A stretch of 43,262 nt of DNA from positions 1-43,262 of IMG/VR virus record IMGVR_UViG_3300045974_000152; one strand, written 5' to 3'. This DNA comes from a virus. Under the pieces are notes generated by a model. The model did no database searches. It was given only the letters and a program-made list of their open reading frames with translations, and had not been told where the DNA came from. Below, piece after piece: positions 1-43,262 of this stretch (its first letter is position 1; the number at the start of each line of letters is the position of its first letter). Position numbers and translations under genes: made by a program.

Positions 1-127
1 AACATAATCGCTGAAATTAATTTAAAATTCATGCAAACCCCTTTTCATTGTTATAATCAAACCATTCCTGTTTACAGCTAGCGCATAATCCGTCGAAACA
101 AGTTGCTTCGTCGCACATACCAGAACA
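1..127. repeat. Left copy of exact 127-bp terminal direct repeat (identical to 43136-43262)
   Basis: Read directly: aacataatcgctgaaatt...cgtcgcacataccagaaca is present at both contig ends. This fits an assembly overlap of a circular or permuted genome. Confidence 0.95.
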
Positions 128-1237: not shown

Positions 1238-2239
1238 CTACAGGTTTAATAATTCAACCCACTCACGCATAATACGTTGCATTCTAAAGTGAGGTGTGCC
1301 GCGTACCTTAGGGCGACCAAGACGCACCCACTGAATCATTCTGTCGATGACCGCTTTTTCATCGTTTACGTCGATGAGTTCCGCCGGGTGATCCGCACAT
1401 TCCGGTGTAGCCCCAAGCTTAGAAGATAAAAACGGGGTACCAACCGCATTAGCTTCAGCGTTTGCGATGCCCATTGTCTCGGGGAATACGCTATTAAGAT
1501 GAAGCGCAGCGAACGAGCTACGTAATTCTTTGATAAGATTAGGGTGCGGTAATGGGCCGAGATTGACCACGCTATCGATTCCATCAAGCTCGTAGTCTTT
1601 GAAGTAACCCGGATTTGCGACATAAAGTTTCATACCTTTCAACTCATCAAAGTTTTTAAATTGTTTAAATACTTTTAAAGTGTGCTCGAGTCCTTTGTGT
1701 GGCGAACTAAAAAATAGAAGCTTGTTCGGATCCACTTTCATATTGTCCGGACGCAGGTCCTCATCGATCGGGTTATAGATACGACGACACGGAATTGAAC
1801 CCTCAAATTTAAGGGATCTCATGACGTCATACATTTGCGTTTTGTGGAAGTCTGATACCACAATTGGTATCGTCTGGGTGTCCACCATAGCCTGGAATCC
1901 CTTGAACCACGCTTCCCCGCCAAAAAGATCATGGCAATGGAGATAGAGCTTTGCGTTCGGATATTGTTTCCGAGCGGTGTACAAAACGAGAGGCGCACGT
2001 TGCACGATAACGTGCGTCGCTTTGAAATCCTCATTCTTTCCGAATGGGGTATATTCTACGCCTTGCTTTGTCACGGAGTCCGTTCGGTTATGCTGCGTTA
2101 CTCGGACGTTGTGGCCTTTGGCAGCGAATGCGTTAGCCAGCCGCACGACCGTTGCCTCGCTACCCCCTAACGGTTCTGCGATTAAGGTATAGTTATCGTA
2201 AGGCTTTGACCCGACCGGATCGACGATTAAAATCTTCAT
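1238..2239 (-). CDS. GT-B fold glycosyltransferase (GT4 / group 1-like)
   Basis: 333 aa. N-terminal PLGGSEATVVRLA motif and E-x7-E motif (FPETMGIANAEANAVGTP). ATGA overlap with the upstream Rrf2 gene. Confidence 0.7.
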   Translation of the reverse strand: MKILIVDPVGSKPYDNYTLIAEPLGGSEATVVRLANAFAAKGHNVRVTQHNRTDSVTKQGVEYTPFGKNEDFKATHVIVQRAPLVLYTARKQYPNAKLYLHCHDLFGGEAWFKGFQAMVDTQTIPIVVSDFHKTQMYDVMRSLKFEGSIPCRRIYNPIDEDLRPDNMKVDPNKLLFFSSPHKGLEHTLKVFKQFKNFDELKGMKLYVANPGYFKDYELDGIDSVVNLGPLPHPNLIKELRSSFAALHLNSVFPETMGIANAEANAVGTPFLSSKLGATPECADHPAELIDVNDEKAVIDRMIQWVRLGRPKVRGTPHFRMQRIMREWVELLNL

Positions 2240-2586
2240 TGTAAAAACTCCCCCACACTGACATTCAGTGTGTCATATAATGCGTTATTTAGTCTGTCAG
2301 AAGCACGGGCATTGCCCATCTCTTTAACAGGATGACCAAGAGCAGCGAATACGTCAAGCATTCGGTATTGCACGAGATCAGTATAGTTCATACTAAACCC
2401 ACCGCCCGGCCCACGCTTGACTCGCACAATTCCCGATTTCGCGAGATTCATAAGAATGCGCTGCAAGAATGATTCGGGGGCACCGATCGCATTGGCTAGT
2501 TCTGCGGCAGTAGTTAACCGATCCGCATAAGATAGCCGCTCGATAGCGTTAACCGCGTAAAGCACTTCTTTATTGAATTGATTCAT
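2236..2586 (-). CDS. Rrf2-family winged-helix transcriptional regulator (no Cys ligands)
   Basis: 116 aa. Rrf2-type signature LAKSGIVRVKRGPGGGFSM. The protein has no cysteine. ATGA overlaps on both sides. Confidence 0.7.
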   Translation of the reverse strand: MNQFNKEVLYAVNAIERLSYADRLTTAAELANAIGAPESFLQRILMNLAKSGIVRVKRGPGGGFSMNYTDLVQYRMLDVFAALGHPVKEMGNARASDRLNNALYDTLNVSVGEFLQ

Positions 2587-4581: not shown

Positions 4582-4605
4582 TTAGTGGTACAAAATGACA
4601 GTATT
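4582..4605 (+). promoter_or_regulatory. Degenerate copy (19/24) of the conserved GTGGTAC motif
   Basis: ttagtggtacaaaatgacagtatt compared with atagtggtacaatttaacagtata. Confidence 0.35.
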
Positions 4606-4689
4606 AGATTGTTTAGTGAACGACGTAGGGAGCAAGTGCGACCTACTAGACACGGTGTAGCTGACCTTCGCTATCCCAAGGGGCTACGG

Positions 4690-4931: not shown

Positions 4932-5141
4932 GTGGCTACAAAGAAGTTGCGTGGTAAAGGTACTATCAATATCGACGATCAGATCATCCGCTGGAGACAG
5001 AAGCTCGAGAAGGAGTCTATCGTACTTGGTAAGCATACCGCTAAGGACAAAGGACGTAGTAAGCGTCAACGCGCCGGACAAAAAAAGGACGCTCTCGTAG
5101 CCAAAGGTAAGTTCAACTTCTTCGGTGGAGACGACGAATGA
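4932..5141 (+). CDS. Small basic protein (69 aa); possible DNA-binding or small-terminase-like role
   Basis: GTG start with GAGG 6 nt upstream. Lys/Arg-rich. ATGA-coupled to the HNH gene just upstream of terL. Confidence 0.55.
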   Translation: MATKKLRGKGTINIDDQIIRWRQKLEKESIVLGKHTAKDKGRSKRQRAGQKKDALVAKGKFNFFGGDDE

Positions 5142-7020: not shown

Positions 7021-7041
7021 TGTTATTCTACGTACTTACAC

Positions 7042-7068
7042 AATATAGTGGTACAATTTAACAGTATA
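7042..7068 (+). promoter_or_regulatory. 27-bp conserved motif aatatagtggtacaatttaacagtata (copy 2)
   Basis: Identical to 17221-17247. Lies in the terL-downstream intergenic region. Confidence 0.6.
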
Positions 7069-8028: not shown

Positions 8029-10310
8029 TGGCAACCAAAAGCAACGGTAACGACAACGCAAGTACGTCCGTAAACACAAGCGGAAACGATATTGACATTA
8101 CTCGTATCAGTAATGACGAGCCAGATCGTCTTGCGTCTGCCATTGAATCGTTCTACAAACAAGACGGCACTAAGAAGACCCGCCTCTCCTATCACTGGGA
8201 GCGCAACATGCGCATGCTCGACGGTGATCAGTGGCTTGTGTTTGGTGGTAGCGGCGGAACTGGCATGTACCAGTGGAACACACTCCAAGTCTCCAAAGCT
8301 AACGAGTATATCCCACGTCCGGTAACAAACTACCTTTTTGATTGCTATCAAACTTTAAAATCTTATCTTACTAAAACCAAACCCCGTTCTACGGTTAAAC
8401 CCAACACGCAGACGTACCAGGACAAAGCCGCAGCTAAAGTTGCAGAGCTTTGTATTGAGGCAAACTACGAACGTCTAAAAGACCAGGAGAACTATGAATA
8501 CGCCGCTGCCGTTCTCATTACTTATGGAACCGTCTACAAGAAGACTTATTGGGATACTACTGCTGGTGGGAGCATTGATGTTTCTCCGATGGCTGATCCT
8601 ATGGCAGGAATCGCCGGAACCCTCCCAGCCCCGCAAGAACTCCCAAGCGTTAATCCCGAAACCGGCCAGCCAATGGAACCGGATTTTGCCGCGCCAAACA
8701 TGGCCGCGCCGCAACCTGAAAGTATTACGCTCGGGGATATTAATACAGTCGTCAAGGAGCCATACTGCATGGCACTTGATCCTCTGGCTACGGATCTGCA
8801 TACCGCTCGTTGGATCATGGAATTTGCGATTCAGCCCCTCGACTGGATTCGCGAAATGTATGGTAAACACGACGAGGGCTACACGGGCCGCGTTGATGAA
8901 GTTAAACCGGAACAGCAACTTTCTGGTTCGATGCGCCGTTTCTACCAGCTTAAAAATTCTTCCGGCGTTAAAAATGCCGCCACACTTGAGGGTGTTGGTA
9001 ACAACGACACGGGAACCCAGCAGCTCGCTAACGCAGCAGTCGTAAAAGAATACTATGAAAGACCTTCTTCAGATTATCCTCGCGGCAGGCTTGTGGTTGT
9101 CGCTAATGGCGTTACTCTCTACGCAGGGGAATCTCCGTATAGCGGTCCCGACTCTGGAGACTGGCACCCATACTCCGAGTGCCGATGGGAGATAGTCCCG
9201 GGTCGTTTTGAAGGTAAATCTCCTCTCGACGCCGCTTGCGAACTCCAGAAGCGTATTAATTCTATCGACGCTACGATCATGCTCGTGCGTAAGACTCAGG
9301 CTATCCCGCAGAAGCTTGTCCCCGCTGGTTGTGGTATCGAACCGGGTCAGTGGACTGGACGCCCAGGACAGCAGCTCTCGTACCGCCCCGACGTCGGTAT
9401 GCCGTCTACCGTACCTGCCGCAGGTGTTGACTCACAGGTCTTCAAAGAACGTGAACAGTGTGTAGAAGACATGAAGACGATCACTGGTGCTATTGACATT
9501 CTGAAGGGTGACCGCCCGCCAGGTGTTAACGCAGCCTCCGCTCTCGCACTTCTTTACGAAGTAGGTACCGGTAAGCTTTTCCCGGTCCTCGACCGTTGGA
9601 AGCGTTTCGTAGAGAATGACCAAAAGAAAGAACTTCGTCTTATTGCTAACAAGTATAAAGAGCCTCGTGAAGAGTATATTAAGATGCTCAAGAAGGCGAA
9701 CAAAGAACTCTCCGCAGGTGACATCGAAAAGTTCCTTGGGCAAGATCTTTTAGATAACTGCAACGTCATCGTTGAATCCGGTTCTAACGTACCGAAGCTC
9801 GAGTCGATGAAGCAGATGCGTCTCCAGGAAGCTGCTCAATCCGGAGCTGTCGATCTTACCCAGCCTATCAACCGCATGGAATACCAGCGTCAGATGGGCA
9901 TCGTAGGGTTTGATAACGACGTCGGCCCTGATGCGAAACGCGCACTGTGGGAAAACGATTGCTTAGATAACATTTTACTTAACCCAGATAAGAAGCCTGT
10001 AGTTCTTACCTGTGACGATGACGCGGTTCACATCTCGACTCACGAACGTCGCATGAAAGAGCCATCGTGGATGGAACTCGATCAAGGTATTCAGCAAGCT
10101 TACATGGCGCACGTTGAAGAGCACCACACTGCTCAAGCGCAAAAGATGCAAATGCAGCAGATGCAAGCGATGGCGATGGGTCAACCTCCGGGGCAGGAAG
10201 CTTCCGGAATGGATCCAACACAAGCACAGGGACATGGCAAGGGCGCTCCGGAAAGTATGCAGAAGGCAAGTGCGTCTTCTGATATTCCACCAGGGAGTGA
10301 ACCTAGATAA
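8028..10310 (+). CDS. Portal protein
   Basis: 760 aa and the largest head-module ORF. Positioned between the terminase and the scaffold/capsid genes. Gln/Met-rich C-terminal tail. Call is based on size and synteny. Confidence 0.75.
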   Translation: MATKSNGNDNASTSVNTSGNDIDITRISNDEPDRLASAIESFYKQDGTKKTRLSYHWERNMRMLDGDQWLVFGGSGGTGMYQWNTLQVSKANEYIPRPVTNYLFDCYQTLKSYLTKTKPRSTVKPNTQTYQDKAAAKVAELCIEANYERLKDQENYEYAAAVLITYGTVYKKTYWDTTAGGSIDVSPMADPMAGIAGTLPAPQELPSVNPETGQPMEPDFAAPNMAAPQPESITLGDINTVVKEPYCMALDPLATDLHTARWIMEFAIQPLDWIREMYGKHDEGYTGRVDEVKPEQQLSGSMRRFYQLKNSSGVKNAATLEGVGNNDTGTQQLANAAVVKEYYERPSSDYPRGRLVVVANGVTLYAGESPYSGPDSGDWHPYSECRWEIVPGRFEGKSPLDAACELQKRINSIDATIMLVRKTQAIPQKLVPAGCGIEPGQWTGRPGQQLSYRPDVGMPSTVPAAGVDSQVFKEREQCVEDMKTITGAIDILKGDRPPGVNAASALALLYEVGTGKLFPVLDRWKRFVENDQKKELRLIANKYKEPREEYIKMLKKANKELSAGDIEKFLGQDLLDNCNVIVESGSNVPKLESMKQMRLQEAAQSGAVDLTQPINRMEYQRQMGIVGFDNDVGPDAKRALWENDCLDNILLNPDKKPVVLTCDDDAVHISTHERRMKEPSWMELDQGIQQAYMAHVEEHHTAQAQKMQMQQMQAMAMGQPPGQEASGMDPTQAQGHGKGAPESMQKASASSDIPPGSEPR

Positions 10311-16957: not shown

Positions 16958-17222
16958 AGTAGTAATATTCGACCATGAAGGGGGGTGGGTACTCATTAAT
17001 CCGGAGAAATCCGAGTATGAGACCCTCCCTCACGTGGTTAATCCCGACCTAAGTTTAGTTAAGAATCTACCACCCGAAAGTTGGGCTTTAGTGGCGGGTA
17101 AGGTAGTACCCCGTACTGATGAGACGCCCGTTCCACGTAAACCAATACAGTGGACTAAGATTTTACCATGGGCTATTGCCACCTTCTCTGTTATTGCCGA
17201 AGTATTACACAGACTTATGTAA
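16944..17222 (+). CDS. Protein with C-terminal transmembrane helix (92 aa)
   Basis: Hydrophobic tail ILPWAIATFSVIAEVL. The stop codon lies inside motif copy 3. Confidence 0.5.
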   Translation: MQKSKVVIFDHEGGWVLINPEKSEYETLPHVVNPDLSLVKNLPPESWALVAGKVVPRTDETPVPRKPIQWTKILPWAIATFSVIAEVLHRLM

Positions 17223-17247
17223 TATAGTGGTACAATTTAACAGTATA
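17221..17247 (+). promoter_or_regulatory. 27-bp conserved motif (copy 3)
   Basis: Identical to 7042-7068. Ends 7 nt before the ATG at 17255. Confidence 0.6.
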
Positions 17248-17254
17248 AGGTAGT

Positions 17255-30915: not shown

Positions 30916-31877
30916 AGTCCCTCATCCCCAGCAAATACATATCTACCACCCTTGAAATCGCAGACCACCTCTTTGCCGGTATACCCAAAGAAACGATCTT
31001 TGTGAACCCTAAACTTAGTGGTTAACGTCTCAAAATCCGGCTCAATCTCGATAGCAAGAAACGAGTGGTTACAGAAGGTCTTATCATTCTGCACTCTCTC
31101 GTACATGGTAGATCCTTCCGCTCCAGGTCCAAGCTGCGCAAAACACACAACCGGAACACCGTGTTTCTTGCCGTAGTCTTTAAGGTAGAGACCAAGCTTT
31201 TTAGAGATTTGAAATGCTTCAAGATCCGGCTGTGCTCGGCTCTGAGTAATACACTGTAAGTAATCGACAAGAACCAAACCCACCTTATCGTGAGCTGCCG
31301 TTTCCAGTACTGACTGCACATCATCGATGTACGACATGTCATATGAACCCTCTTCCACTACTTCGACCCTAGGGATGATTAACCCCATAATGCAATCTTC
31401 TATTCCACGCTCTGTCCGATAATCGAGTTGACCACGGAAGAAATCCTGGTAATTAACCTCGAGAAGAACGCACGCAGTACGCTCGTAGATTGCATCAGAG
31501 GCTTCTTCGTTTGAGATGACGATTGCGCTTTTGTCAGGCACGGAACGCAAGAAACCCGCCAATACATTAGACGCAGTAGTTGATTTTGCTCGTCCTGATT
31601 TGGCTCCCACCACGATAAGTCCCTGACCAAGCCATAATCCGGGCAAGAATGACCTACTGATAAACGGCACTTGATTGAGCCTGATAGCGCGTCGGATTGC
31701 TCTAGCTTCTCGGTATTGCTCTGCTCGTTTAGCGACTGATTTTTGTTCATATACCCTCCCCGTCCTAATTTGCGTAGGAGAGATCTTCTCGAAGGAATTG
31801 ACTGCTTCTAACGGCGACAAGCCCCCGCTCCGTACCATATCGATTAGCCCGGACTTTATTTCTTTTAGTTCTGCCAT
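30912..31877 (-). CDS. DnaB-like (RecA-fold) replicative helicase
   Basis: 321 aa. Deviant Walker A VGAKSGRAKST, Walker B/DnaB motif LVLVDYLQ. Confidence 0.75.
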   Translation of the reverse strand: MAELKEIKSGLIDMVRSGGLSPLEAVNSFEKISPTQIRTGRVYEQKSVAKRAEQYREARAIRRAIRLNQVPFISRSFLPGLWLGQGLIVVGAKSGRAKSTTASNVLAGFLRSVPDKSAIVISNEEASDAIYERTACVLLEVNYQDFFRGQLDYRTERGIEDCIMGLIIPRVEVVEEGSYDMSYIDDVQSVLETAAHDKVGLVLVDYLQCITQSRAQPDLEAFQISKKLGLYLKDYGKKHGVPVVCFAQLGPGAEGSTMYERVQNDKTFCNHSFLAIEIEPDFETLTTKFRVHKDRFFGYTGKEVVCDFKGGRYVFAGDEGL

Positions 31878-32247
31878 AAAGAGTCATGACCTTTCTTGAG
31901 TATTCGTTTCCACTGCCTGTGGAAGAACCACGGTTATAAGCAACGACTGCCCGTTTCCAATCTCCGTAACGGTTATATTGCATCCGGAGGTAAGCCGCTG
32001 CAATGTTTGCATTGGTAATCGGGTTAAAAAGCTCCTTAACGCTAACGCCTGGGCGAAATTGCCAGGCAGTCCTTGTTTGTAACTGACACATTCCGACGCT
32101 ATCACGTCCACCTTTTCCATCCCGCTCCACTACCGCATAAGGGTTTAATTGAGATTCCACTGTGCACAAAGATACTAATAAACCACTAGGTACGCCGTGC
32201 AAAGACTCAGCAAGTCCGATGATGGCGGCTAGTACTGATGGGCTCAT
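31765..32247 (-). CDS. Lytic transglycosylase (SLT domain)
   Basis: 160 aa. Catalytic-Glu motif CTVESQLNPYAV, GMCQL, AYNRG. Confidence 0.75.
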   Translation of the reverse strand: MSPSVLAAIIGLAESLHGVPSGLLVSLCTVESQLNPYAVVERDGKGGRDSVGMCQLQTRTAWQFRPGVSVKELFNPITNANIAAAYLRMQYNRYGDWKRAVVAYNRGSSTGSGNEYSRKVMTLYGRTKRNKVRANRYGTERGLVAVRSSQFLREDLSYAN

Positions 32248-32591: not shown

Positions 32592-34400
32592 CTAGTCCTC
32601 CCATTTCGTCATTATACCACTGCTCTCGGCCTTAAGAGCTACGGTCAGGTTTATATCCTCTCCCACCTTTTTCATCGCGTCAAGGAGGATTTTTTCGCCT
32701 TCTTCGGCTTTCTCTTTTTTGACTTGGATAACAATTTCGTCGTGGACGCTAAATAAAGCTCGTCCAATTCCGCGATGTCGAAGCATTTCGTCTGCAAGAT
32801 ATAAAGCCCTGCTAGTACAATCCGATCCCGTACCTTGCACAAGCGCGTTCCAAGCTTGTCTGTAGGCAGAGTCCCAAGCTTGTCGTTTACGGACATCAAA
32901 ACGGCGCCGACGTCCAAAAGGGTTAATGATAGGTTCTCCATCATCAACTCGTCTTGCGCACTCATCCATAACCTTTTTCTGGCCGGAGTAAGTTTCCCAG
33001 TACTTGTCATATGCTTCTTTCCCCTTTTGCTCGTTAACACCTAAGACCTTGGAAACTTTATAATGACTGCACCCGTACTGCATTCCGAAGTTGACGGTTT
33101 TCGCAAGGTTTCGGGGTATATTAAGTGAAGCTGCTGTAATGTCATGCTGGGATATTCCCTCATTAACAATTCGAAGAAGGTTCTCATCTCGGGTAAAGTG
33201 CGCAGATAGACACACTTCCAGTTGCGAGAAGTCTGCGGAGATGAAGACGGTCCCCGGGTCTGGAACGAACATTCCACGTATGCCACCCGTTCGGGGGAGA
33301 TTCCCCATGTTAGGGTTTGAGTGAGAAATGCGTCCAGTTGCGGTACCGGCAACGTTGAAAGAAGGGTAAATTCTTCCTTCAACCATTCTCTCCAGAGTGC
33401 CCTCGATATACGTTCCATAGATCTTGTTCGCCTCTCTATATTGCTGGATCATGTCGATAACAGGGTGCTTGTCCTTGATCTTCTCGAGCGAGTCATAGTC
33501 CACGCTGACAGACTTAGTCTTCTCGTTCTTCTGCACGGGTAATCCAAGCTTATCGTACAGTAGCGCAATAAGCTGCTTCGGGCTATCGAACGAAAACGTG
33601 GGACGTACCACCCGGGATTTACCCGCCTCAGTCTTCAGCTTGTCGATCTTCGCAATCCAGTCGTCACACTCGACTATAGAGATTTCGTCCGCAACCGCCT
33701 GGCGCATCTGAGGAAGAAGCCTCTCAATAGTCGTCTTAAGCTCCATGCCTTTTTGCATGAGGTAGGAAACGTCGATGGCGATTCCTGCGATTTCAGTACT
33801 GAGTAGTGAACGCTGGAGCGCGTGCACATGGGAAACAAGAGATTCTGGAACTCCTCCGGAGTGTAAACCCTCCCGGAATAGGTTATAGAGTCGTAAGGTA
33901 TAAGATACGTCTTTTCCATTATACGCTGCAAGTTCTTCTTCCGGCGCATCTTCCGCCTTTTTATACTTGCCCCAGAACTGCGTTTTGTAGTCGTCATTGA
34001 AGTACCTTTCTACGAGTGCTCCGAGTCCGTGCTCTCCGTTTTCGTCGAGGAGGTGGGATAGGATGAGTGTGTCGCTATAATCCACAGCAAGTACGCTAAG
34101 ATCGCACCCAGCCCAAGCAAGATGGCGAAGATCGAACGAAGCGTTGTGAAAAATGTACTTAAGTCCTGAGGGTCCTGTATTAAGTTCATGTAACATCTCC
34201 GGCCCGAAGAAGGCCACGTCATTCGCAGTCGGCCCTGTTACCGCCGCGCTAATAATCTTATCGGACCGTGTTAACCCCGTAGTCTCGATGTCGAGCGCAA
34301 CAGTGTCCTGGCCTTCCCTGGCCGTGTCCTCGAGCCAACCCCGTAGCTCCCCCGGTTTAGTGAGTTTAGTAATCTTAATCAAAGTGGATACCCGCCTCAA
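32592..34400 (-). CDS. Family A DNA polymerase with 3'-5' exonuclease domain
   Basis: 602 aa. Exo motifs ALDIETTG, HNASFDLRHL, YNGKDVSY. Pol motif A ISADFSQLEV, motif B RNLAKTVNFGMQYG, motif C SVHDEIV. Only TTG starts are available (34400 or 34382). Confidence 0.9.
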   Translation of the reverse strand: MRRVSTLIKITKLTKPGELRGWLEDTAREGQDTVALDIETTGLTRSDKIISAAVTGPTANDVAFFGPEMLHELNTGPSGLKYIFHNASFDLRHLAWAGCDLSVLAVDYSDTLILSHLLDENGEHGLGALVERYFNDDYKTQFWGKYKKAEDAPEEELAAYNGKDVSYTLRLYNLFREGLHSGGVPESLVSHVHALQRSLLSTEIAGIAIDVSYLMQKGMELKTTIERLLPQMRQAVADEISIVECDDWIAKIDKLKTEAGKSRVVRPTFSFDSPKQLIALLYDKLGLPVQKNEKTKSVSVDYDSLEKIKDKHPVIDMIQQYREANKIYGTYIEGTLERMVEGRIYPSFNVAGTATGRISHSNPNMGNLPRTGGIRGMFVPDPGTVFISADFSQLEVCLSAHFTRDENLLRIVNEGISQHDITAASLNIPRNLAKTVNFGMQYGCSHYKVSKVLGVNEQKGKEAYDKYWETYSGQKKVMDECARRVDDGEPIINPFGRRRRFDVRKRQAWDSAYRQAWNALVQGTGSDCTSRALYLADEMLRHRGIGRALFSVHDEIVIQVKKEKAEEGEKILLDAMKKVGEDINLTVALKAESSGIMTKWED

Positions 34401-34884
34401 ATACGAGATAATCTCTACCCTTATTAGGCATAGCTAATCCCGCACTGGAAATGTGATTATACCCTATGCTCATGAAGCTGTCCGTATCCCGCATACCAAA
34501 ACCGACGTCTGTGCAGAACTGCCCAAAGCCCCCCAGTACAGTATCCCGTGTCGTCATCAGGCAGGGGCCTATGAATGCCTTACCAAATACGCCCTCTTTC
34601 TGTCCCGGCTTAATTCCGAGTTGTGCCTTAAATAATCCCGCGCTTTTCCGACCATTACCGCCGTTATCGACGTAGCCCCCACCCTCAAACCCCGTATGAA
34701 TACCTTCCCATACGTACTCCTCACGGCGTAGTCCAAAGATCTTACTGGACCCGTCCGTAGTACCGTTCTGGATACTAGGTCCGAAATGTAAGCCCCAATC
34801 CGCTGCTAACACACCTCTAGCGCCTAGTACACATACTGCTGTAAGGAGTAACGTAAACACTATCAGTTTTGTCCGTTCTGACAT
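34375..34884 (-). CDS. pagL: PagL-like outer-membrane lipid A 3-O-deacylase
   Basis: 169 aa. Signal peptide MSERTKLIVFTLLLTAVCVLGARGVLA. The C-terminal IGYNHISSAGLAMPNKGRDYLVF aligns with the P. aeruginosa PagL active-site region as I recall it (AIHYSNAGLKQPNDGIESYSLF; His/Ser). Size matches (about 170 aa). Confidence 0.6.
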   Translation of the reverse strand: MSERTKLIVFTLLLTAVCVLGARGVLAADWGLHFGPSIQNGTTDGSSKIFGLRREEYVWEGIHTGFEGGGYVDNGGNGRKSAGLFKAQLGIKPGQKEGVFGKAFIGPCLMTTRDTVLGGFGQFCTDVGFGMRDTDSFMSIGYNHISSAGLAMPNKGRDYLVFEAGIHFD

Positions 34885-34895
34885 AATACCTCTAG

Positions 34896-34941
34896 AGTGA
34901 AAAATGCCAGAGGGAACACATCCTGTGTAACGTCCTCTGGC
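34896..34941 (-). terminator. Hairpin + T5 (terminator or attenuator) upstream of the PagL-like gene
   Basis: 8-bp stem gccagagg/cctctggc with inner acaca/tgtgt. On the minus strand it is followed by ATTTTTCAC. Confidence 0.4.
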
Positions 34942-35042
34942 TAGGGTGAGCGACTGGCAAGGGCGCTCCGGTTAACTTATGTGCAGTCTCTCCTGCTGTC
35001 ACCGAGGCTCACGCGGTCTGTCCCGGCGCGCGGGCGTAAATC

Positions 35043-35330
35043 TTAAAGTCCGCTGTCCCCGTCGTTTGCAGCTTGCATACGGGTACGCTCTTCAGCAAGA
35101 AGGTCGGCGGTAACGGCTTCTAGAAAGAAATCCGGAAACTTCTCGCCCTTCTCCTGCTTAGTCTTAGGATTAGTAGCCTTTACTGCAAGCTTACCGCCTA
35201 CTGCGGCCTGAATTGCTGCGCAAGCTTTATCAGCGTATTCCTGGGAGAGAATCGCGCTGCGTGAGTTTCCTGCAGTTTTAGTTGCGTATAGTCCTACTAC
35301 AGTAATCGGGTACTTCTTATCATTTGCCAT
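35043..35330 (-). CDS. Hypothetical protein (95 aa) with acidic tail
   Basis: Track ORF ending ...QAANDGDSGL. Adjacent to the annealase gene. An SSB-like role is speculation. Confidence 0.6.
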   Translation of the reverse strand: MANDKKYPITVVGLYATKTAGNSRSAILSQEYADKACAAIQAAVGGKLAVKATNPKTKQEKGEKFPDFFLEAVTADLLAEERTRMQAANDGDSGL

Positions 35331-36045
35331 TCGCTAGTCCTTCCAGTGTTTCGTTTAGTTCCTTAGCTTGAGTATCGCTTAACGCTTCTTTTGAGTCAAC
35401 AGAATATTTCGTCTTGATCATCGCTTTTAGTTCTTCAACCGTCTTCAACTTCTTTGCGATAACCACACGTGAGATAGCCCCGATCTTCTTATTAAGAACG
35501 TCGCGGTTAGTCTCACTTACCGCTAATACAGCCATAGCGGGGGCGTGGTTTTCAAGTGCCTTTTCTGCGGCCTTAACAAACGCGGTTTTCGGCGCTTCGT
35601 CAATAAATTCCCCAGACTTGTCGTAAAGTCCGAGGCCCATACTGATACCAAGTTTCATAGCTGCACGCTTAAGAGCATCGGATTCAGCCTCTTTAGTAGC
35701 CATCTCGTGAGGGTTAAGCTTTGACTTATCACTTCCCCACCCAGTACCCTCTTTAATGACCGTTGTATACCCGATCAACTCCCCGTCGCTCGATAGCGCG
35801 GGAACGCTGACCTTAATACGTACTTTTGCAACGTATGCTGGAAGCTGCTCACCTGTGCTAACAAGCCGCATTTCAACGGTTTCTGAGTCCCACCCAAGAT
35901 TACCAAAAACCTTGTTAAGGCGGTCAATTACGTACCACGAAGCAAGATAAGAAAGGGATTTAGACCCCCCTGCGCTACGCTGTTCAACGGCTTCACGTGG
36001 AATGTTACTCTCTAAGTCTTTTTCGACTTCTTCACGAGTTCTCAT
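35320..36045 (-). CDS. Rad52/Sak-like single-strand annealing protein
   Basis: 241 aa. LSYLASWYVIDRLNKVFGNLGWDSE and ESDALKRAAMKLGISMGLGLY fit the Rad52_Rad22 family pattern. Confidence 0.65.
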   Translation of the reverse strand: MRTREEVEKDLESNIPREAVEQRSAGGSKSLSYLASWYVIDRLNKVFGNLGWDSETVEMRLVSTGEQLPAYVAKVRIKVSVPALSSDGELIGYTTVIKEGTGWGSDKSKLNPHEMATKEAESDALKRAAMKLGISMGLGLYDKSGEFIDEAPKTAFVKAAEKALENHAPAMAVLAVSETNRDVLNKKIGAISRVVIAKKLKTVEELKAMIKTKYSVDSKEALSDTQAKELNETLEGLANGK

Positions 36046-36287
36046 TTGTTCTCCTTTTTCATCTGTGAATATACTTTACGCGTTAGTGCTCTATTAGGTG
36101 CGTCTCGGTAAACTTGCTCGGTGCGGTCGTACTCAAGGGTGCCGTCTTGTAATTTAGTTACATAATGCCCTTCGTTCATGATCGGTAGCCCGTCCTTATC
36201 GTATGCATATTGACGGTGATACGCTGGGGGTGATTTAGTCCGCCGCTTCCAGAATGGTTTATTTAACGCCTTTGCTCTACTGCTCAT
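36042..36287 (-). CDS. Hypothetical basic protein (81 aa)
   Basis: ATGA coupling at both ends. Confidence 0.6.
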   Translation of the reverse strand: MSSRAKALNKPFWKRRTKSPPAYHRQYAYDKDGLPIMNEGHYVTKLQDGTLEYDRTEQVYRDAPNRALTRKVYSQMKKENK

Positions 36288-36862
36288 AATGTCTCCCTTA
36301 GTTCGTTATTAAACTTTGCACTTTCTTCGATTATTTTGCAAGTAGTATTTTCATCAGGTTCAACGGCGATCAAATGAATTTCTCCGCTAACGTCATCTCG
36401 CATACACATAAATGCTAGGTCGATTTTAGCTACTAACATCTGCGCCAAGATCTGCACACGGTACGGCTCCCACACTTCGTAGTTACGTGCCATCTCGAGC
36501 TTCCCCTTAGCCCACGAGTTCTTAGTCTCTATGATAACCCCGTGCTCGAAGTTAACGCAGTCAATAGACGCTAGTATACCGAGTTCCTCGTCAAGGAGGA
36601 CACACGGCTCGAACTTCATCCCAAGTTTAGCTTCAGCCCACACCCGTAATTCGGCCTCGATTTCATGGCCACGTGCGAACATCGCGGTAGTGTACTCGTC
36701 GCGCTGTTTCTCCTCCCCTGAAGACTTGGACTCCAGTAGCTTCTTACGTGACCCGTATGCACCCTTAACCTTAAGGATAGCAGCCATCTCGGACGCGGTG
36801 GCGTACTTACGTCTAAGAGCTAACCACTCCGGTGAACCTTGGGCTACGTCGATAATCTTCAT
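36284..36862 (-). CDS. YqaJ-like (lambda Exo-type) recombination exonuclease
   Basis: 192 aa. QGSPEWLALRRKYATASE, GHEIE, SIDC and IIETK motifs of the PD-(D/E)xK YqaJ family. Confidence 0.7.
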   Translation of the reverse strand: MKIIDVAQGSPEWLALRRKYATASEMAAILKVKGAYGSRKKLLESKSSGEEKQRDEYTTAMFARGHEIEAELRVWAEAKLGMKFEPCVLLDEELGILASIDCVNFEHGVIIETKNSWAKGKLEMARNYEVWEPYRVQILAQMLVAKIDLAFMCMRDDVSGEIHLIAVEPDENTTCKIIEESAKFNNELRETL

Positions 36863-39699: not shown

Positions 39700-39896
39700 T
39701 ACACCGTAACCATTATACACATACTTTCTTACTTAAGGATACGTGTATGTTTTCAACATACGATCGTATTATACGGTAATACGAATAATGTATTTTTATA
39801 CGATAAAGCGTATTATAAAGTACTATATATTATAATACATAATTGTATTGACACGGATATAGTTTATTGGTACGTTATATAGAGGAGAAACGTAAC

Positions 39897-40604
39897 ATGA
39901 AAGCTATGTTGATTAGGTCCGCGTTCGCTGCCGTTATTGCAGCAAGTGTATTTGGTTTAGTAACTATTGGACGCAGTCCCAGTCAAGGACAACGTTTAGC
40001 ACGCTCGGTAGTACGTGTGCTTAACTTTGAAGGTACGGGTGGTGGTACGGGATGGGTAACCCGTTCAGCTTCCGGACGTCGTGTTATTGTAACGAACGAT
40101 CACGTTTGTGAAGTTGCTAAAGACGGCATGGTACGCATTCAAGACGATTCGGGTACATCTTCGATTAAAGAAGTACTTACAACGTCCTTCGATCATGATC
40201 TATGCCTTATTGAAGGTATCGAAGCCCCAGCTCTTACCGTAGCTAAAACCGGTCCTAACCGCTTTGATGATCTTACTGTCGTAGGGCACCCACTTCTTGG
40301 GCCTCTCACGATGTCTAAAGGACAGTTCACTGGTATCAGTATCCTTCCCATTGGTGGGTTCGTAGAAGAAGGTCAAGAATGTCCACACGGTACGGAAACC
40401 GTTCAATCACTTTTCGGTACTGTATGCATTCACCTTATGGAACTCGGCACGACGACTGCTCAAATTTACCCGGGTAACAGTGGCTCGCCTGTAATTAATA
40501 CGGACGGGGAAGTGATCGGTGTAATGAACTCTGGTGACGGTATGATGTTTCATGGTAACCTTGTAACGCTTAATTACTTACGAGACATTTTAAACACGAA
40601 ATGA
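39897..40604 (+). CDS. Secreted trypsin-like (S1/S1C) serine protease
   Basis: ATG at 39897 with AGAGGAG upstream. Signal peptide MKAMLIRSAFAAVIAASVFGLV. Triad contexts TNDHVCE, DHDLCLI, GNSGSPVIN. Confidence 0.7.
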   Translation: MKAMLIRSAFAAVIAASVFGLVTIGRSPSQGQRLARSVVRVLNFEGTGGGTGWVTRSASGRRVIVTNDHVCEVAKDGMVRIQDDSGTSSIKEVLTTSFDHDLCLIEGIEAPALTVAKTGPNRFDDLTVVGHPLLGPLTMSKGQFTGISILPIGGFVEEGQECPHGTETVQSLFGTVCIHLMELGTTTAQIYPGNSGSPVINTDGEVIGVMNSGDGMMFHGNLVTLNYLRDILNTK

Positions 40605-40820: not shown

Positions 40821-41231
40821 ATGGACGAGACAGTCGTCCAGGAAGCGCTTACTAGACAGGTAGCGACTATCCTTCTTGCCGGTACTTCGATCACGGATTG
40901 CGCCAAGCAACTAAGCATTACCCCCGCAGCGGTACGCCGCATTACGAGCTTGGATAAGTATAAAGAACTGGTAACCGCTACTGCGGAAGACGAACTTGCC
41001 CCGGCACTCGCTAAGGCTAAAGCGCAGCTTGCTAGGCTCACGACTAAGGCGGTTAAAGCTATTGAACAGGCTCTTGATTCTGGTAACTCCCGGGACGCTC
41101 TACAGGCGGCTACGATCGTCCTTAAGTCTGTCGGGTTACATGAAGAGAAAGAAGCGCAACAAGATACGAGTATCACGGTGGTACTCCCAAGCGGGATAGA
41201 ATCCCCTATTACATACGAGGTGAAAGAATGA
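40821..41231 (+). CDS. HTH DNA-binding protein (136 aa)
   Basis: Track ORF trimmed to the ATG at 40821. AGTSITDCAKQLSITPAAVRRI looks like an HTH, followed by a long helix. Confidence 0.5.
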   Translation: MDETVVQEALTRQVATILLAGTSITDCAKQLSITPAAVRRITSLDKYKELVTATAEDELAPALAKAKAQLARLTTKAVKAIEQALDSGNSRDALQAATIVLKSVGLHEEKEAQQDTSITVVLPSGIESPITYEVKE

Positions 41232-41551
41232 GTACTACGTTTCAACCCCTTTACGATAAGGTGCTAGTTATTCGCAGTCAAGCTGAAGAAGTCAGTGCGG
41301 CGGGCCTGGTTATTCTTGAGACTTCCCAACTACGGGAAAAGCCTTCTACTGGTATTGTTGTAGCAGTGGGCACGGGTCGGGTCAATGAACTAGGTCAAGT
41401 GCTCCCCCTCATCGTTAAAGAAGGGGATAAGGTACTTTTCGGTAAATACGCAGGTACTGATATTAAGCTTGACGGTGACGAATTTCTCATGATGCGAGAA
41501 GAAGACATCCTCGGTATCATTAAAGAATCTTCCCTTGTGAGCCTCGGATGA
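41228..41551 (+). CDS. groES: GroES (Cpn10) co-chaperonin homologue
   Basis: 107 aa. Aligns by eye along the whole length with bacterial GroES: PLYDKVLVIR..EEVSAAGLVILETS..EKPSTGIVVAVGTGR...VKEGDKVLFGKYAGTDIKLDGDEFLMMREEDILGII. Confidence 0.8.
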   Translation: MSTTFQPLYDKVLVIRSQAEEVSAAGLVILETSQLREKPSTGIVVAVGTGRVNELGQVLPLIVKEGDKVLFGKYAGTDIKLDGDEFLMMREEDILGIIKESSLVSLG

Positions 41552-41976
41552 AAAAACAAAAAGACATATTTTTAGTACTTGGTTTAGGGTCTACCGCTAA
41601 AGGCAGCGGGAGTGCTGGAATGCTCGGCCTGCTAACTCTCCAGGGATTAAAGAAGCGAGGGGACATTGGTAGAAAGATCTCTAAGAAAGACTTAGAAGGT
41701 CCTCAGGTTAGCATCTGGTTCGCTAACGCGGAAGCGGTTACTTCTCTCTGTGCCGAGTTAATGACTGTGGCTAACGACATGGCTAAAGCAGAAAAGGAAA
41801 TAAAAGATGCCTCAATTAATATCTCCGCTGGATGTACTGACAAGCTCGGGAAGTCACCCAGAGAGGGAAAAAGATCCGGAGTGTACGACGCAAGTAAGAA
41901 TAAACGCGGCGGACGTGGCGGAAAGAGTGTCAAAGCTGCTCGGGGCGTTGGGCGTAACACAAGTGAAGGTCGTTAG
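41548..41976 (+). CDS. Hypothetical protein (142 aa) with basic RGG-like tail
   Basis: ATGA-coupled to groES. Its last 170 nt overlap the M15 peptidase gene out of frame. Confidence 0.5.
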   Translation: MKKQKDIFLVLGLGSTAKGSGSAGMLGLLTLQGLKKRGDIGRKISKKDLEGPQVSIWFANAEAVTSLCAELMTVANDMAKAEKEIKDASINISAGCTDKLGKSPREGKRSGVYDASKNKRGGRGGKSVKAARGVGRNTSEGR

Positions 41977-42214
41977 TGGGTTCCGCACCTCAGAGGCTAA
42001 CCATGCCGCTAATGGCGCGAAGAATTCAGCTCATATGACCGGAAAGGCGGTAGACCTTGAGGATAAGGATGGGAAAATCGATGCTGCTATTACTGCTGAT
42101 CCTAGTTTACTCGACACTTTTGATCTCTACCGCGAACATCCTTATTACACCCTTAATTGGGTTCATTTATCAATTCAACCGACAGCCTCGGGAAGGCGCA
42201 CCTTCACACCATGA
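41807..42214 (+). CDS. Peptidase M15 (VanY / L-Ala-D-Glu peptidase-like) cell-wall hydrolase
   Basis: 135 aa. VVSGFRTSEANHAANGAKNSAHMTGKAVDLE and WVHLS give the His/Asp/His zinc-site pattern. AAGGA lies 8 nt upstream. Confidence 0.7.
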   Translation: MPQLISPLDVLTSSGSHPEREKDPECTTQVRINAADVAERVSKLLGALGVTQVKVVSGFRTSEANHAANGAKNSAHMTGKAVDLEDKDGKIDAAITADPSLLDTFDLYREHPYYTLNWVHLSIQPTASGRRTFTP

Positions 42215-42858: not shown

Positions 42859-43167
42859 TCAGTTCTGAATTCCACAATTAGCTAGCACTACAAAATTACA
42901 ACTTGCGTTGATCCCATTGGACCCGTACGAGCCCGGGGGAATCTCGGTAGTGAACCCGCCATTAGCGGAGTACGTTGCGTAGATTTTATTATTCACGCAG
43001 AAACCGCCTTCCACAAAGCGGGAAAGGTAGGTCGTAGTTCCAGGACAGAATTTAACGAAAGTTACAGAGCTTGCGTCAATCCCGTCCCGTCCGTTGTACC
43101 CAGTAGGACCTCGTCCGCAACCCATGAGAACTACTAACATAATCGCTGAAATTAATTTAAAATTCAT
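42859..43167 (-). CDS. Lipoprotein with short collagen-like GXY run
   Basis: 102 aa. Lipobox in MNFKLISAIMLVVLMGC. GPTGYNGRDGID gives four GXY triplets. The start lies inside the terminal repeat. Confidence 0.7.
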   Translation of the reverse strand: MNFKLISAIMLVVLMGCGRGPTGYNGRDGIDASSVTFVKFCPGTTTYLSRFVEGGFCVNNKIYATYSANGGFTTEIPPGSYGSNGINASCNFVVLANCGIQN

Positions 43168-43262
43168 GCAAACCCCTTTTCATTGTTATAATCAAACCAT
43201 TCCTGTTTACAGCTAGCGCATAATCCGTCGAAACAAGTTGCTTCGTCGCACATACCAGAACA
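43136..43262. repeat. Right copy of exact 127-bp terminal direct repeat
   Basis: Identical to 1-127. Confidence 0.95.

What the first reader, a model, noticed from the sequence alone, without database searches (positions are those of the whole stretch)
34375..34941. Phage-encoded PagL-like lipid A deacylase in a moron-like position
The 169-aa ORF has a cleavable signal peptide, the size of an 8-stranded outer-membrane barrel, and the C-terminal block IGYNHISSAGLAMPNKGRDYLVF. That block lines up with the PagL active-site segment as I recall it (HYSNAGLKQPNDG, catalytic His and Ser). The gene sits between the recombination genes and the DNA polymerase. It lies directly downstream of a hairpin plus T5 and has its own SD. 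Its 3' end overlaps the polymerase start. A lipid A 3-O-deacylase made during infection could remodel the outer membrane of the infected cell. Possible outcomes include blocking superinfection, changing vesiculation, or altering susceptibility to antimicrobial peptides. I am not aware that this is a described phage function.
Basis: partly seen in the sequence, partly recalled or inferred. Interest (0 to 1): 0.7.

Follow-up and report, generated by a model that had tools for sequence, protein, structure and literature searches.

The report
Phage-encoded PagL-like outer-membrane lipid deacylase
A complete 43-kb uncultured phage genome carries, inside its DNA-replication operon, a gene for a small outer-membrane barrel enzyme of the PagL family (bacterial enzymes that strip a fatty acid from lipid A), and it belongs to a large clade seen so far only on phage contigs, which suggests phages remodel the lipid core of the host's outer membrane during infection.

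Summary
ORF 34375..34884 (minus strand, 169 aa) matches Pfam PagL (PF09411) above its curated cutoff. Its family profile reaches crystallised P. aeruginosa PagL (2ERV), with H144 on His126, S146 on Ser128 and D158 on Glu140. AlphaFold gives a signal helix plus exactly eight strands (pLDDT 88). In 183 relatives Ser, Asn154 and Gly156 are invariant, His is 182/183, and the third triad residue is Asp or Asn. The contig is a complete phage (127-bp terminal repeat). Every interpretable relative context is phage, on at least four unrelated backbones. No relative was found in 50,697 deposited phage genomes, or in 185,579 species genomes with clade-specific patterns. The "moron" label is not supported. 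The upstream hairpin lies 6 nt from the ribosome-binding site, so it is in the gene's own leader. The gene overlaps the polymerase start by 8 nt and its composition is normal. Enzyme activity, substrate position and biological payoff remain inferred. I favour infection-time outer-membrane remodelling for exclusion of other phages or protection of progeny. Side finding: the conserved leader contains a 17-mer exactly complementary to the portal mRNA.

The parts
34375..34884 (-). PagL-like gene: 169 codons plus stop. Sec signal peptide followed by an 8-stranded outer-membrane beta-barrel.
   Evidence: ORF; PF09411 E=2.5e-6, 28.1 bits vs cutoff 23; AlphaFold pLDDT 88.2 with strands 28-39, 42-59, 62-73, 82-91, 98-110, 121-132, 136-146, 156-168; Foldseek match to 2ERV.
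34804..34884 (-). Signal peptide, residues 1-27, with predicted cleavage VLA|ADW.
   Evidence: Sequence inspection; helix 3-22 in the model; an A-x-A|AD[YW] site is conserved across the family alignment.
34411..34455 (-). Catalytic block H144-I-S146-S-A-G-L-A-M-P-N154-K-G156-R-D158: putative Ser-His-Asp triad plus a conserved Asn.
   Evidence: hmmsearch and hhalign against 2ERV place H144=His126, S146=Ser128, N154=Asn136 and D158=Glu140. Conservation in 183 members: S 183, N 183, G 183, H 182, and D 159/N 22/E 1/Q 1.
34889..34893 (-). Ribosome-binding site AGAGG, 4 nt before the ATG.
   Evidence: Sequence; strong SD-like sequences are also present in L007, L013 and L116.
34900..34941 (-). Two-tier hairpin (34906..34941) plus A-T5 (34900..34904) in the 5' leader of the PagL-like gene: a terminator or attenuator-like element.
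   Evidence: It is conserved in L004 with compensatory changes in both stems. L116 has a classic GC-rich stem plus T6 at the same place.
34955..34971 (-). Conserved leader box CCGGAGCGCCCTTGCCA. Its 12-mer core, GAGCGCCCTTGC, is invariant in four related phages.
   Evidence: An exact 17-mer copy lies at 10235..10251, antisense to the portal mRNA.
32592..34382 (-). Family A DNA polymerase, TTG start, overlapping the PagL-like stop codon by 8 nt (TTGATTAA): co-transcribed and probably translationally coupled.
   Evidence: phrog_17 E=1.5e-104; 596-aa gene call in L030; same 8-nt overlap in L116.
35043..36862 (-). Upstream genes of the same strand block: 95-aa ORF, Rad52/Erf-like annealing protein, 81-aa ORF and RecE/YqaJ-like exonuclease.
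   Evidence: the same order is found in L004, L007 and L116.

Best explanation
The gene encodes a catalytically competent member of the PagL family (PF09411), made by a phage during infection of a Gram-negative host. Shown by sequence and structure prediction: a Sec-type signal peptide, an eight-stranded amphipathic beta-barrel ending in an aromatic residue near the C-terminus (an outer-membrane assembly signal), and an H-x-S...N-x-G-R-D block. This block aligns without gaps to the His126/Ser128/Asn136/Glu140 active-site block of P. aeruginosa PagL, giving a Ser146-His144-Asp158 triad on neighbouring strands 7 and 8. Inferred: after export and insertion into the outer membrane, it hydrolyses an ester-linked primary acyl chain of lipid A in the outer leaflet, most likely the 3-O chain as in PagL. 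Expression: the gene lies in the minus-strand recombination/replication block behind a conserved leader (invariant 12-mer plus terminator-like hairpin) and overlaps the DNA polymerase start by 8 nt. It is therefore transcribed through that hairpin and made together with the polymerase in early or middle infection, not with the lysis genes. Biological role (inferred, least certain): under-acylated lipid A changes outer-membrane packing and curvature, and active PagL raises vesiculation about 4-fold in Salmonella. I think the most likely payoff is protection of the infected cell and the progeny from further phage adsorption or injection (a superinfection-exclusion or receptor-destroying-type function). 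Fast evolution of the protein and its exchange between unrelated phage backbones fit a host-interface role.
For: Family membership: PF09411 above cutoff; 28/28 diverse relatives hit only PF09411. The profile against PDB finds 2ERV at E=8e-6, and hhalign gives 93% probability and E=2.9e-7 with H144/S146/D158 on His126/Ser128/Glu140. The 2ERV sequence was verified. Fold: pLDDT 88.2, eight strands. 2ERV has the highest sequence identity (19%) and the lowest rmsd among the natural proteins in the top list. Catalytic constraint: S, N and G are invariant, H is 182/183, and D or N accounts for 181/183 across 183 members that share only about 25-60% identity. His and Ser are essential for PagL activity, and active PagL raises vesicle production about 4-fold (PMC4958258). 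Phage origin: terminase, portal and capsid genes and a 127-bp terminal repeat. Nine of the ten relatives whose contexts were looked up are phage or phage-like; the tenth (P0100) sits on contigs too short to judge. 17 IMG/VR loci were found, none in GTDB species genomes, and none in 80 unrelated PolA-phage loci. Expression context. Fast evolution: PolA is 76-77% identical but PagL only 47-55% in the same phage pairs. A copy on an unrelated integrase/Prim-Pol backbone is closer, at 65%.
Against: No enzymology: activity, substrate and position specificity are inferred from homology at only about 19% identity to the characterised enzyme. The Pfam score of the window protein is only 5 bits above cutoff, and no NCBIfam model matches. 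The residue I recall as giving PagL its lipid A specificity (Asp106) aligns with a variable position (T125), while the neighbouring D126 is only 71% conserved. The third triad residue is Asp/Asn rather than Glu. The host is unknown, so the lipid A chemistry it would act on is unknown. Nothing in the data distinguishes exclusion, vesiculation and lysis-priming as the payoff. The cellular-genome scans used stricter patterns than the viral scans; only about 3 of the roughly 15 distinct viral loci would match them. So the 'phage-restricted' claim rests mainly on contig sizes and contexts.
Confidence: 0.72

Rival explanations
1. It is a PagL-fold outer-membrane serine esterase, but its substrate is not the 3-O acyl chain of lipid A. 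Alternatives include another lipid A ester (3'-O or a secondary acyl chain), mislocalised outer-leaflet phospholipid (as for OMPLA), or another surface glycolipid of an unusual host.
For: The clade is very divergent from characterised PagL (19% identity; no NCBIfam hit). The position aligned to the recalled specificity residue Asp106 is variable. The third triad residue is Asp or Asn, and Asn is what OMPLA uses (my own knowledge). The host and its lipid A are unknown.
Against: The only family any of 28 diverse members matches is PF09411. The active-site block aligns to PagL without gaps over 15 residues, including the invariant Asn and Gly. OMPLA and LpxR are 12-stranded barrels (my own knowledge), not 8-stranded.
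Confidence: 0.17
2. It is a lysis accessory. By deacylating lipid A it weakens the outer membrane so that the last barrier fails at lysis, in place of or alongside spanins.
For: No spanin pair or holin was recognised in the window with the tools used. PagL activity perturbs outer-membrane curvature (PMC4958258).
Against: The gene is never in the lysis cassette. In the window the M15 endolysin (41807..42214, + strand) is 7 kb away on the other strand. In relatives the gene stays next to polA/dnaB or among early small genes. Coupling to the polymerase implies synthesis long before lysis. I did not search for spanins rigorously, so their absence is not established.
Confidence: 0.08
3. It is a non-enzymatic outer-membrane barrel, a Lom/Ail/OmpX-like surface protein acting as an adhesin, receptor mask or structural decoy, and the PagL resemblance is only shared fold.
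For: Foldseek cannot separate small 8-stranded barrels: OprF-N, OmpA and Ail score as well as PagL. Many phage-encoded OmpX/Opa/OmpA-like barrels exist in BFVD.
Against: Sequence, not only fold, assigns it to PF09411. No Ail/Lom or OmpA Pfam model matches even at E<=10. The near-absolute invariance of H, S, N and G and the D/N position in 183 members at roughly 25-60% identity is what a catalytic site shows, not a scaffold.
Confidence: 0.03

Closest known systems
PagL, lipid A 3-O-deacylase of Salmonella, Pseudomonas aeruginosa (PDB 2ERV) and Bordetella (Pfam PF09411)
   Same: Same Pfam family. About 150 mature residues. Eight-stranded outer-membrane barrel with a signal peptide. The H-x-S-[NS]-A-G...P-N-x-G active-site block is in the same place on strands 7 and 8, with an acidic residue two positions after the Gly.
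   Different: Encoded by phages rather than chromosomes. About 19% identity. Asp (87%) or Asn (12%) replaces Glu140, and an almost invariant Arg precedes it (G-R-D). The column aligned to Asp106 is variable. Expressed from a phage replication operon rather than under PhoP/PhoQ control. No NCBIfam model recognises it.
Phage-encoded LPS modification and exclusion functions: O-antigen glucosylation/acetylation (GtrABC, Oac) of temperate Salmonella/Shigella phages, and T5 Llp lipoprotein (my own knowledge)
   Same: A phage alters or masks the host surface to stop further phage adsorption or loss of progeny on debris. T5 Llp is likewise made early in a lytic infection and acts at the outer membrane.
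   Different: Those systems act on the O-antigen or on a protein receptor. None is an outer-membrane barrel enzyme, and none touches lipid A acylation.
Lambda Lom and other phage-encoded Ail/OmpX-type 8-stranded barrels
   Same: Small phage-encoded outer-membrane beta-barrels with the same overall fold.
   Different: Lom-type proteins are non-enzymatic and are typically expressed from the prophage as true morons. This protein has a conserved catalytic triad, matches only PF09411, and sits in a lytic-cycle operon.
OMPLA (PldA), LpxR and PagP: other outer-membrane lipid-modifying barrel enzymes
   Same: Their active sites lie on the outer face of a barrel at the level of the outer leaflet. OMPLA uses Ser-His-Asn, like the 12% of this clade with Asn at the third position.
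   Different: Different strand numbers (12 for OMPLA and LpxR) or different chemistry (PagP is an acyltransferase). No sequence match to their families.

Membership tests
PagL (Pfam PF09411) | Significant match to the family HMM above the curated gathering score | tested here: met
   28.1 bits vs 23, E=2.5e-6. 28/28 diverse relatives match PF09411 only, best E=2.9e-13. The family profile finds 2ERV at E=8e-6, and hhalign gives 93% probability.
PagL (Pfam PF09411) | Eight-stranded antiparallel outer-membrane beta-barrel of about 150 residues | tested here: met
   AlphaFold2 pLDDT 88.2, pTM 0.75, exactly eight strands after the signal helix. Foldseek match to 2erv_A: TM 0.60/0.66, rmsd 3.8 A.
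PagL (Pfam PF09411) | Catalytic His and Ser in an H-x-S motif on the penultimate strand | tested here: met
   H144/S146 align to His126/Ser128 of 2ERV. H is 182/183 and S is 183/183 in the clade. Their essentiality in PagL is stated in PMC4958258.
PagL (Pfam PF09411) | Acidic third member of the triad at the start of the last strand (Glu140 in P. aeruginosa; residue identity from my own knowledge of Rutten et al. 2006) | tested here: met
   D158 aligns to Glu140 without gaps (G-R-D vs G-I-E). The clade has D 159, N 22, E 1, Q 1 of 183. This is a conservative substitution, not identity.
PagL (Pfam PF09411) | Conserved Asn of the P-N-x-G turn (proposed oxyanion-hole residue; role recalled from memory) | tested here: met
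   N154 aligns to Asn136 and is 183/183 invariant.
PagL (Pfam PF09411) | Asp that hydrogen-bonds the 3-OH of the acyl chain and gives lipid A specificity (Asp106; recalled from memory) | tested here: inconclusive
   hhalign puts T125 opposite Asp106, and this column is variable (H/E/T/Q/N). The next residue, D126, is D in 130 and E in 24 of 183. A one-residue register shift cannot be excluded without coordinates.
PagL (Pfam PF09411) | Sec signal peptide and a C-terminal aromatic assembly signal for the outer membrane | tested here: met
   The n/h/c regions and the VLA|A site were read from the sequence, and the model has a helix at 3-22. The window protein ends ...GIHFD. 133/175 full-length members have F/W/Y within the last three residues. 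This is heuristic only; no SignalP was available.
PagL (Pfam PF09411) | Lipid A 3-O-deacylase activity | not testable with these tools
   Requires expression and lipid A mass spectrometry.
Moron (independently transcribed insert in a phage genome, sensu Hendrix) | Own promoter upstream and own terminator downstream, between two conserved genes | tested here: not met
   Only 6 nt separate the T-run (34900) from the ribosome-binding site (34893). The only promoter-like hit has its -10 element on the start codon. No terminator follows, and the gene overlaps polA by 8 nt.
Moron (independently transcribed insert in a phage genome, sensu Hendrix) | Base composition deviating from the surrounding genome | tested here: not met
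   Gene GC 49.4% (GC3 48.2%) vs 47.3% for the genome and 49.3% for polA.
Moron (independently transcribed insert in a phage genome, sensu Hendrix) | Presence/absence polymorphism among otherwise syntenic genomes | tested here: inconclusive
   All six syntenic relatives examined carry the gene, before polA (L004, L007, L013, L116) or after it (L006, L011). It is absent from 80 unrelated PolA-phage loci and present on unrelated backbones. It is mobile over long times, but no recent insertion was seen.
Ail/Lom/OmpX-type phage outer-membrane proteins | Match to the Ail_Lom or OMP barrel sequence families | tested here: not met
   PF09411 was the only Pfam hit at E<=10. The structural similarity is generic to 8-stranded barrels.
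Known anti-phage defence / exclusion proteins (PADLOC-DB) | Match to a catalogued defence protein model | tested here: not met
   No PADLOC hit at E<=1.

The most novel reading that the evidence does not exclude
Phages of Gram-negative bacteria carry their own, phage-restricted clade of PagL-type enzymes. These deacylate lipid A of the infected cell early in the lytic cycle as a dedicated infection function. Possible roles are closing the outer membrane to competing phages, shedding receptor-bearing vesicles as decoys, or stopping progeny from being wasted on debris. This would be the first case of a virus editing the lipid anchor of LPS rather than its sugars. In this lineage, synthesis would be gated by a conserved leader RNA that also pairs with the late (portal) mRNA.
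Probability: 0.3. Interest if true: 0.78.

Novelty: new variant of a known kind. Interest (0 to 1): 0.6.

Why it matters
Phage manipulation of LPS is known for the O-antigen and is mostly linked to lysogenic conversion. Enzymatic editing of lipid A by a virus has not, to my knowledge or in the literature I could search, been described.

If the activity is confirmed, it adds a new layer to phage–phage competition and phage–host surface biology. It also gives a large natural panel of compact outer-membrane deacylases (573 cluster representatives at 50% identity) that could be useful for detoxifying LPS in vaccine or vesicle production strains.

It matters for phage therapy too, because lysates from such phages would carry under-acylated, less TLR4-active lipid A. 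The clade is invisible in cultured-phage databases, so it also illustrates what metagenomic phage 'dark matter' still hides.

Tried and rejected
- **Whole-region megablast** against 50,697 phage records found no match. tblastn with the protein and two divergent relatives also found nothing, so no cultured reference is available.
- **NCBIfam, PHROGs and PADLOC** gave no usable hit.
- **Single-sequence phmmer against PDB** missed PagL. Only the family profile reached it.
- **Structure paper** (Rutten et al. 2006): not held by PubMed id or PMC id, and two literature searches for the triad residues returned noise. Residue roles beyond His/Ser therefore rest on my memory. The 2ERV sequence itself was verified.
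The single-protein IMG/VR scan found nothing.
- **Host identification failed.** There are no tRNAs. The capsid and polymerase are at most 26-29% identical to any cultured phage, with mixed hosts. The strong Shine-Dalgarno sequences only argue against SD-poor hosts such as Bacteroidota (my inference).
- **Polymerase-alignment scan** meant to sample the window's lineage returned only distant PolA phages. I reused these as a negative control.
- **Rfam** found nothing in the leader. The hairpin loop motif occurs only at this locus.
- **Covariation test of the leader box against a variant portal site** could not be run: the pattern was too short for a collection scan.
- **Rejected readings:** a lipoprotein reading of the N-terminus (Cys18 is not preceded by a lipobox and is not conserved), and a virion-protein reading (a Sec signal plus a membrane barrel is incompatible with it).
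Full report
**1. The observation**

The window is a whole 43,262-bp contig with a 127-bp exact direct terminal repeat, 47.3% GC and no tRNA genes. It encodes a large terminase, portal, major capsid protein and tail spike on the plus strand. The minus strand carries a replication/recombination block: methyltransferase, RecE/YqaJ-like exonuclease, Rad52/Erf-like annealing protein, family A DNA polymerase, SLT transglycosylase, DnaB-like helicase, primase and a 3'-5' exonuclease. It is therefore a complete tailed-phage genome.

- Its N-terminus (MSERTKLIVFTLLLTAVCVLGARGVLA|ADW) has the three regions of a Sec signal peptide.
- Immediately upstream are AGAGG (34889..34893, 4 nt from the ATG), a T5 run (34900..34904) and a hairpin, GCCAGAGG/CCTCTGGC with a 20-nt interior (34906..34941).
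- The polymerase frame has no ATG or GTG ahead of its DIETTGL motif, only TTG at 34400 or 34382. It therefore overlaps the stop codon of the ORF. An independent gene call on a second assembly of the same phage uses the 8-nt overlap.

**2. What the protein is**

- Pfam gives a single hit, PF09411 (PagL, lipid A 3-O-deacylase), at E=2.5e-6 and 28.1 bits against a curated cutoff of 23. That margin is small, so I built the family.
- A first search found 17 relatives at 33-65% identity.
- A profile of these reaches the crystallised P. aeruginosa PagL (2ERV) at E=8e-6.
- After verifying the 2ERV sequence, profile–profile alignment gives 93% probability and E=2.9e-7. H144, S146, N154, G156 and D158 lie opposite His126, Ser128, Asn136, Gly138 and Glu140, with no gaps.
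- AlphaFold2 on the family alignment gives pLDDT 88.2 and pTM 0.75: a helix at 3-22 followed by exactly eight strands.
- Foldseek against the PDB returns only small outer-membrane barrels. 2ERV scores TM 0.60/0.66 and rmsd 3.8 A, with the highest sequence identity in the list (19%). Fold alone cannot separate PagL from OmpA, OmpX or Ail. The sequence evidence does.
- An exhaustive profile search of 1.84 billion cluster representatives finds 573 relatives at E<=1e-3 and 37 at E<=1e-30.
- All 28 of a diverse sample match PF09411 and no other Pfam family.
- In 183 members, Ser146, Asn154 and Gly156 are invariant, His144 is 182/183, Arg157 is 173/183, and position 158 is Asp in 159, Asn in 22, Glu in 1 and Gln in 1.

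His and Ser of this motif are essential for PagL activity (PMC4958258). Invariance of this kind at about 25-60% overall identity is the signature of an active enzyme, not a scaffold.

The clade differs from characterised PagL in two ways:
- It has G-R-D where P. aeruginosa has G-I-E.
- The column opposite Asp106 is variable. I recall Asp106 as the lipid A specificity residue, so the exact ester attacked cannot be asserted.

**3. Where the family lives**

I looked up genomic contexts for ten relatives. Nine are phage or phage-like; the tenth, P0100, sits on contigs of about 1 kb that are too short to judge.
- Five relatives (P0002, P0012, P0014, P0017, P0183) are on roughly 35-45 kb genomes syntenic with the window. 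The PagL-like gene lies just before polA (L004, L007, L116) or just after it (L006, L011).
- P0006, which is 65% identical and closer than most syntenic copies, is on a different, integrase-bearing backbone with a Prim-Pol replicase.
- P0181 is on a 57 kb phage with holin and M15 endolysin genes.
- P0177 is on a 166 kb phage with Pyr_excise, peptide deformylase and ClpP genes.
- P0150 is on a 9.6 kb contig of tightly packed, co-oriented genes with no Pfam hits.

Clade-specific peptide patterns found 8 and 9 loci in IMG/VR, on contigs of 6 to 177 kb. All have a signal peptide, the H-x-S and PN-x-GRD motifs, and a C-terminal aromatic residue.

Four such patterns found nothing confirmable in one genome for each of 185,579 bacterial and archaeal species. 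The caveat is that the genome patterns were stricter: only about three of the roughly 15 distinct viral loci would have matched them.

Independent support comes from contig sizes. No cluster or 49 is seen on a contig longer than 166 kb, and none carries a curated name.

None of 80 unrelated PolA-phage loci (854 kb) has a copy. No record among 50,697 deposited phage genomes matches three divergent members by tblastn. PHROGs has no family for it. BFVD holds many phage OmpX/Opa/OmpA-like barrels but nothing PagL-like. The literature searches found no natural phage PagL.

**4. How it is expressed, and why 'moron' does not fit**

Only 6 nt separate the T-run from the ribosome-binding site, so no promoter can sit between them. 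The single promoter-like hit there has its -10 element on the start codon. Transcripts of the gene must therefore pass through the hairpin, which lies in its 5' leader.

There is no terminator after the gene. The polymerase start overlaps it by 8 nt, as it does in L116. GC and GC3 are unremarkable.

The leader is conserved. Window and L004 have the same two-tier hairpin with compensatory changes in both stems. L116 has a classic GC-rich stem plus T6. All four aligned leaders share an invariant GAGCGCCCTTGC 20-35 nt upstream of the hairpin.

The gene is thus an integrated member of an early/middle operon behind an attenuator-like leader and is made together with the polymerase.

It does evolve fast. 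PolA is 76-77% identical between the window and two relatives, while the PagL-like proteins are 47-55% identical. It has also moved between backbones. Both properties are typical of host-interface genes.

**5. Mechanism**

Shown by sequence and structure prediction: signal peptide, barrel, triad and operon position.

Inferred: Sec export, BAM insertion, and hydrolysis of an ester-linked primary acyl chain of lipid A in the outer leaflet.

In Salmonella, active but not inactive PagL raises vesicle production about 4-fold, and deacylated lipid A accumulates in vesicles (PMC4958258). Lipid A acylation state affects entry of an RNA phage in P. aeruginosa (PMC10783630).

The gene is early, never lies in the lysis cassette (the M15 endolysin is at 41807..42214 on the other strand), evolves fast and is exchanged among phages. 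For these reasons I favour infection-time outer-membrane remodelling that excludes other phages or protects progeny, over a lysis-helper role. This last step is the least certain.

**6. Comparison and novelty**

By every sequence and fold criterion I could test, this is a member of the PagL family. It belongs to a divergent clade (Asp/Asn for Glu, G-R-D signature) that appears to be carried by phages only.

Phage modification of O-antigen and phage outer-membrane barrels such as Lom are known. A phage lipid A deacylase is not known, as far as I can tell. I rate it a new variant of a known kind, with interest 0.6.

**7. Side finding**

The leader box extends to a 17-mer, CCGGAGCGCCCTTGCCA (34955..34971, minus strand). 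It recurs exactly at 10235..10251 on the minus strand, antisense to the 3' end of the portal gene about 60 nt before the next gene. About 5e-6 such matches are expected by chance.

In the L013/L118 phage, box and portal site keep 13 nt of perfect complementarity. The portal site encodes a conserved G-K-G-A-P motif in an otherwise variable tail, so part of the conservation comes from the protein.

In three of the four leaders the box sits in the loop of a short hairpin. In L007 the same slot holds a tRNA-His gene.

A leader-derived or independent small RNA that pairs with the late mRNA is a reasonable hypothesis. I could not test covariation.

Noticed in passing
window 34955..34971 (-) and 10235..10251 (-); L004 4919-4930, L013 5862-5873, L116 6931-6942: The leader upstream of the PagL-like gene contains a 12-mer, GAGCGCCCTTGC, that is invariant in four related phages. 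In the window it extends to a 17-mer that recurs exactly, antisense to the 3' end of the portal gene (codons G-K-G-A-P), about 60 nt before the next gene. The L013/L118 phage keeps 13 nt of complementarity. This may be a small RNA or leader that pairs with the late mRNA.
   Followed up: partly
window 34900..34941 (-); L004 about 4946-4990; L116 about 6950-6985: The hairpin plus T-run upstream of the gene is conserved between window and L004, with compensatory changes in both the outer and the inner stem and a conserved junction (ACGTTAC / GTTC). L116 has a classic intrinsic terminator at the same place. There is no Rfam match.
   Followed up: partly
L007 5915..5986: In a syntenic relative, the intergenic slot just upstream of the PagL-like gene holds a tRNA-His (GTG) gene instead of the box-plus-hairpin leader.
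   Followed up: no
window 4583..4612, 7024..7068, 17203..17254 (+): Three copies of an AT-rich motif of about 25-45 nt (TAGTGGTACAA[AT][AT]T[AG]ACAGTAT...) lie in gaps of the plus-strand structural block: after the terminase gene and before the genes starting at 5138 and 17439. They are candidate late promoters or regulatory sites.
   Followed up: no
window 41228..41551 (+): Phage-encoded GroES-like co-chaperonin (Pfam Cpn10, E=5e-28). It is also present in relative L116, next to the protease and endolysin genes.
   Followed up: no
window 39867..40604 (+): A trypsin-like serine protease (Trypsin_2) with an N-terminal hydrophobic signal or anchor. It is conserved next to the M15 endolysin region in the related phages (L004, L006, L007, L010, L011, L116). 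Its role is unknown.
   Followed up: no
window 42859..43167 (-): A 102-aa ORF with a lipoprotein signal (MNFKLISAIMLVVLMG|C). It is a second predicted envelope-targeted phage protein and has no PADLOC hit. It could be an exclusion lipoprotein or an outer-membrane spanin-like component.
   Followed up: partly
window 1238..2586 (-): A GT1-family glycosyltransferase (333 aa) sits directly downstream of an Rrf2-type transcriptional regulator (116 aa). This is another possible surface-modifying cargo gene. A GT1 gene also occurs in relative L011.
   Followed up: no
window 31765..32247 (-): An SLT-type lytic transglycosylase is embedded in the replication module between polA and dnaB, and is conserved in L007. 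It is separate from the M15 endolysin at 41807..42214.
   Followed up: no
window 1..127 and 43136..43262: An exact 127-bp direct terminal repeat, indicating a complete genome (either terminally redundant or a circular assembly).
   Followed up: yes
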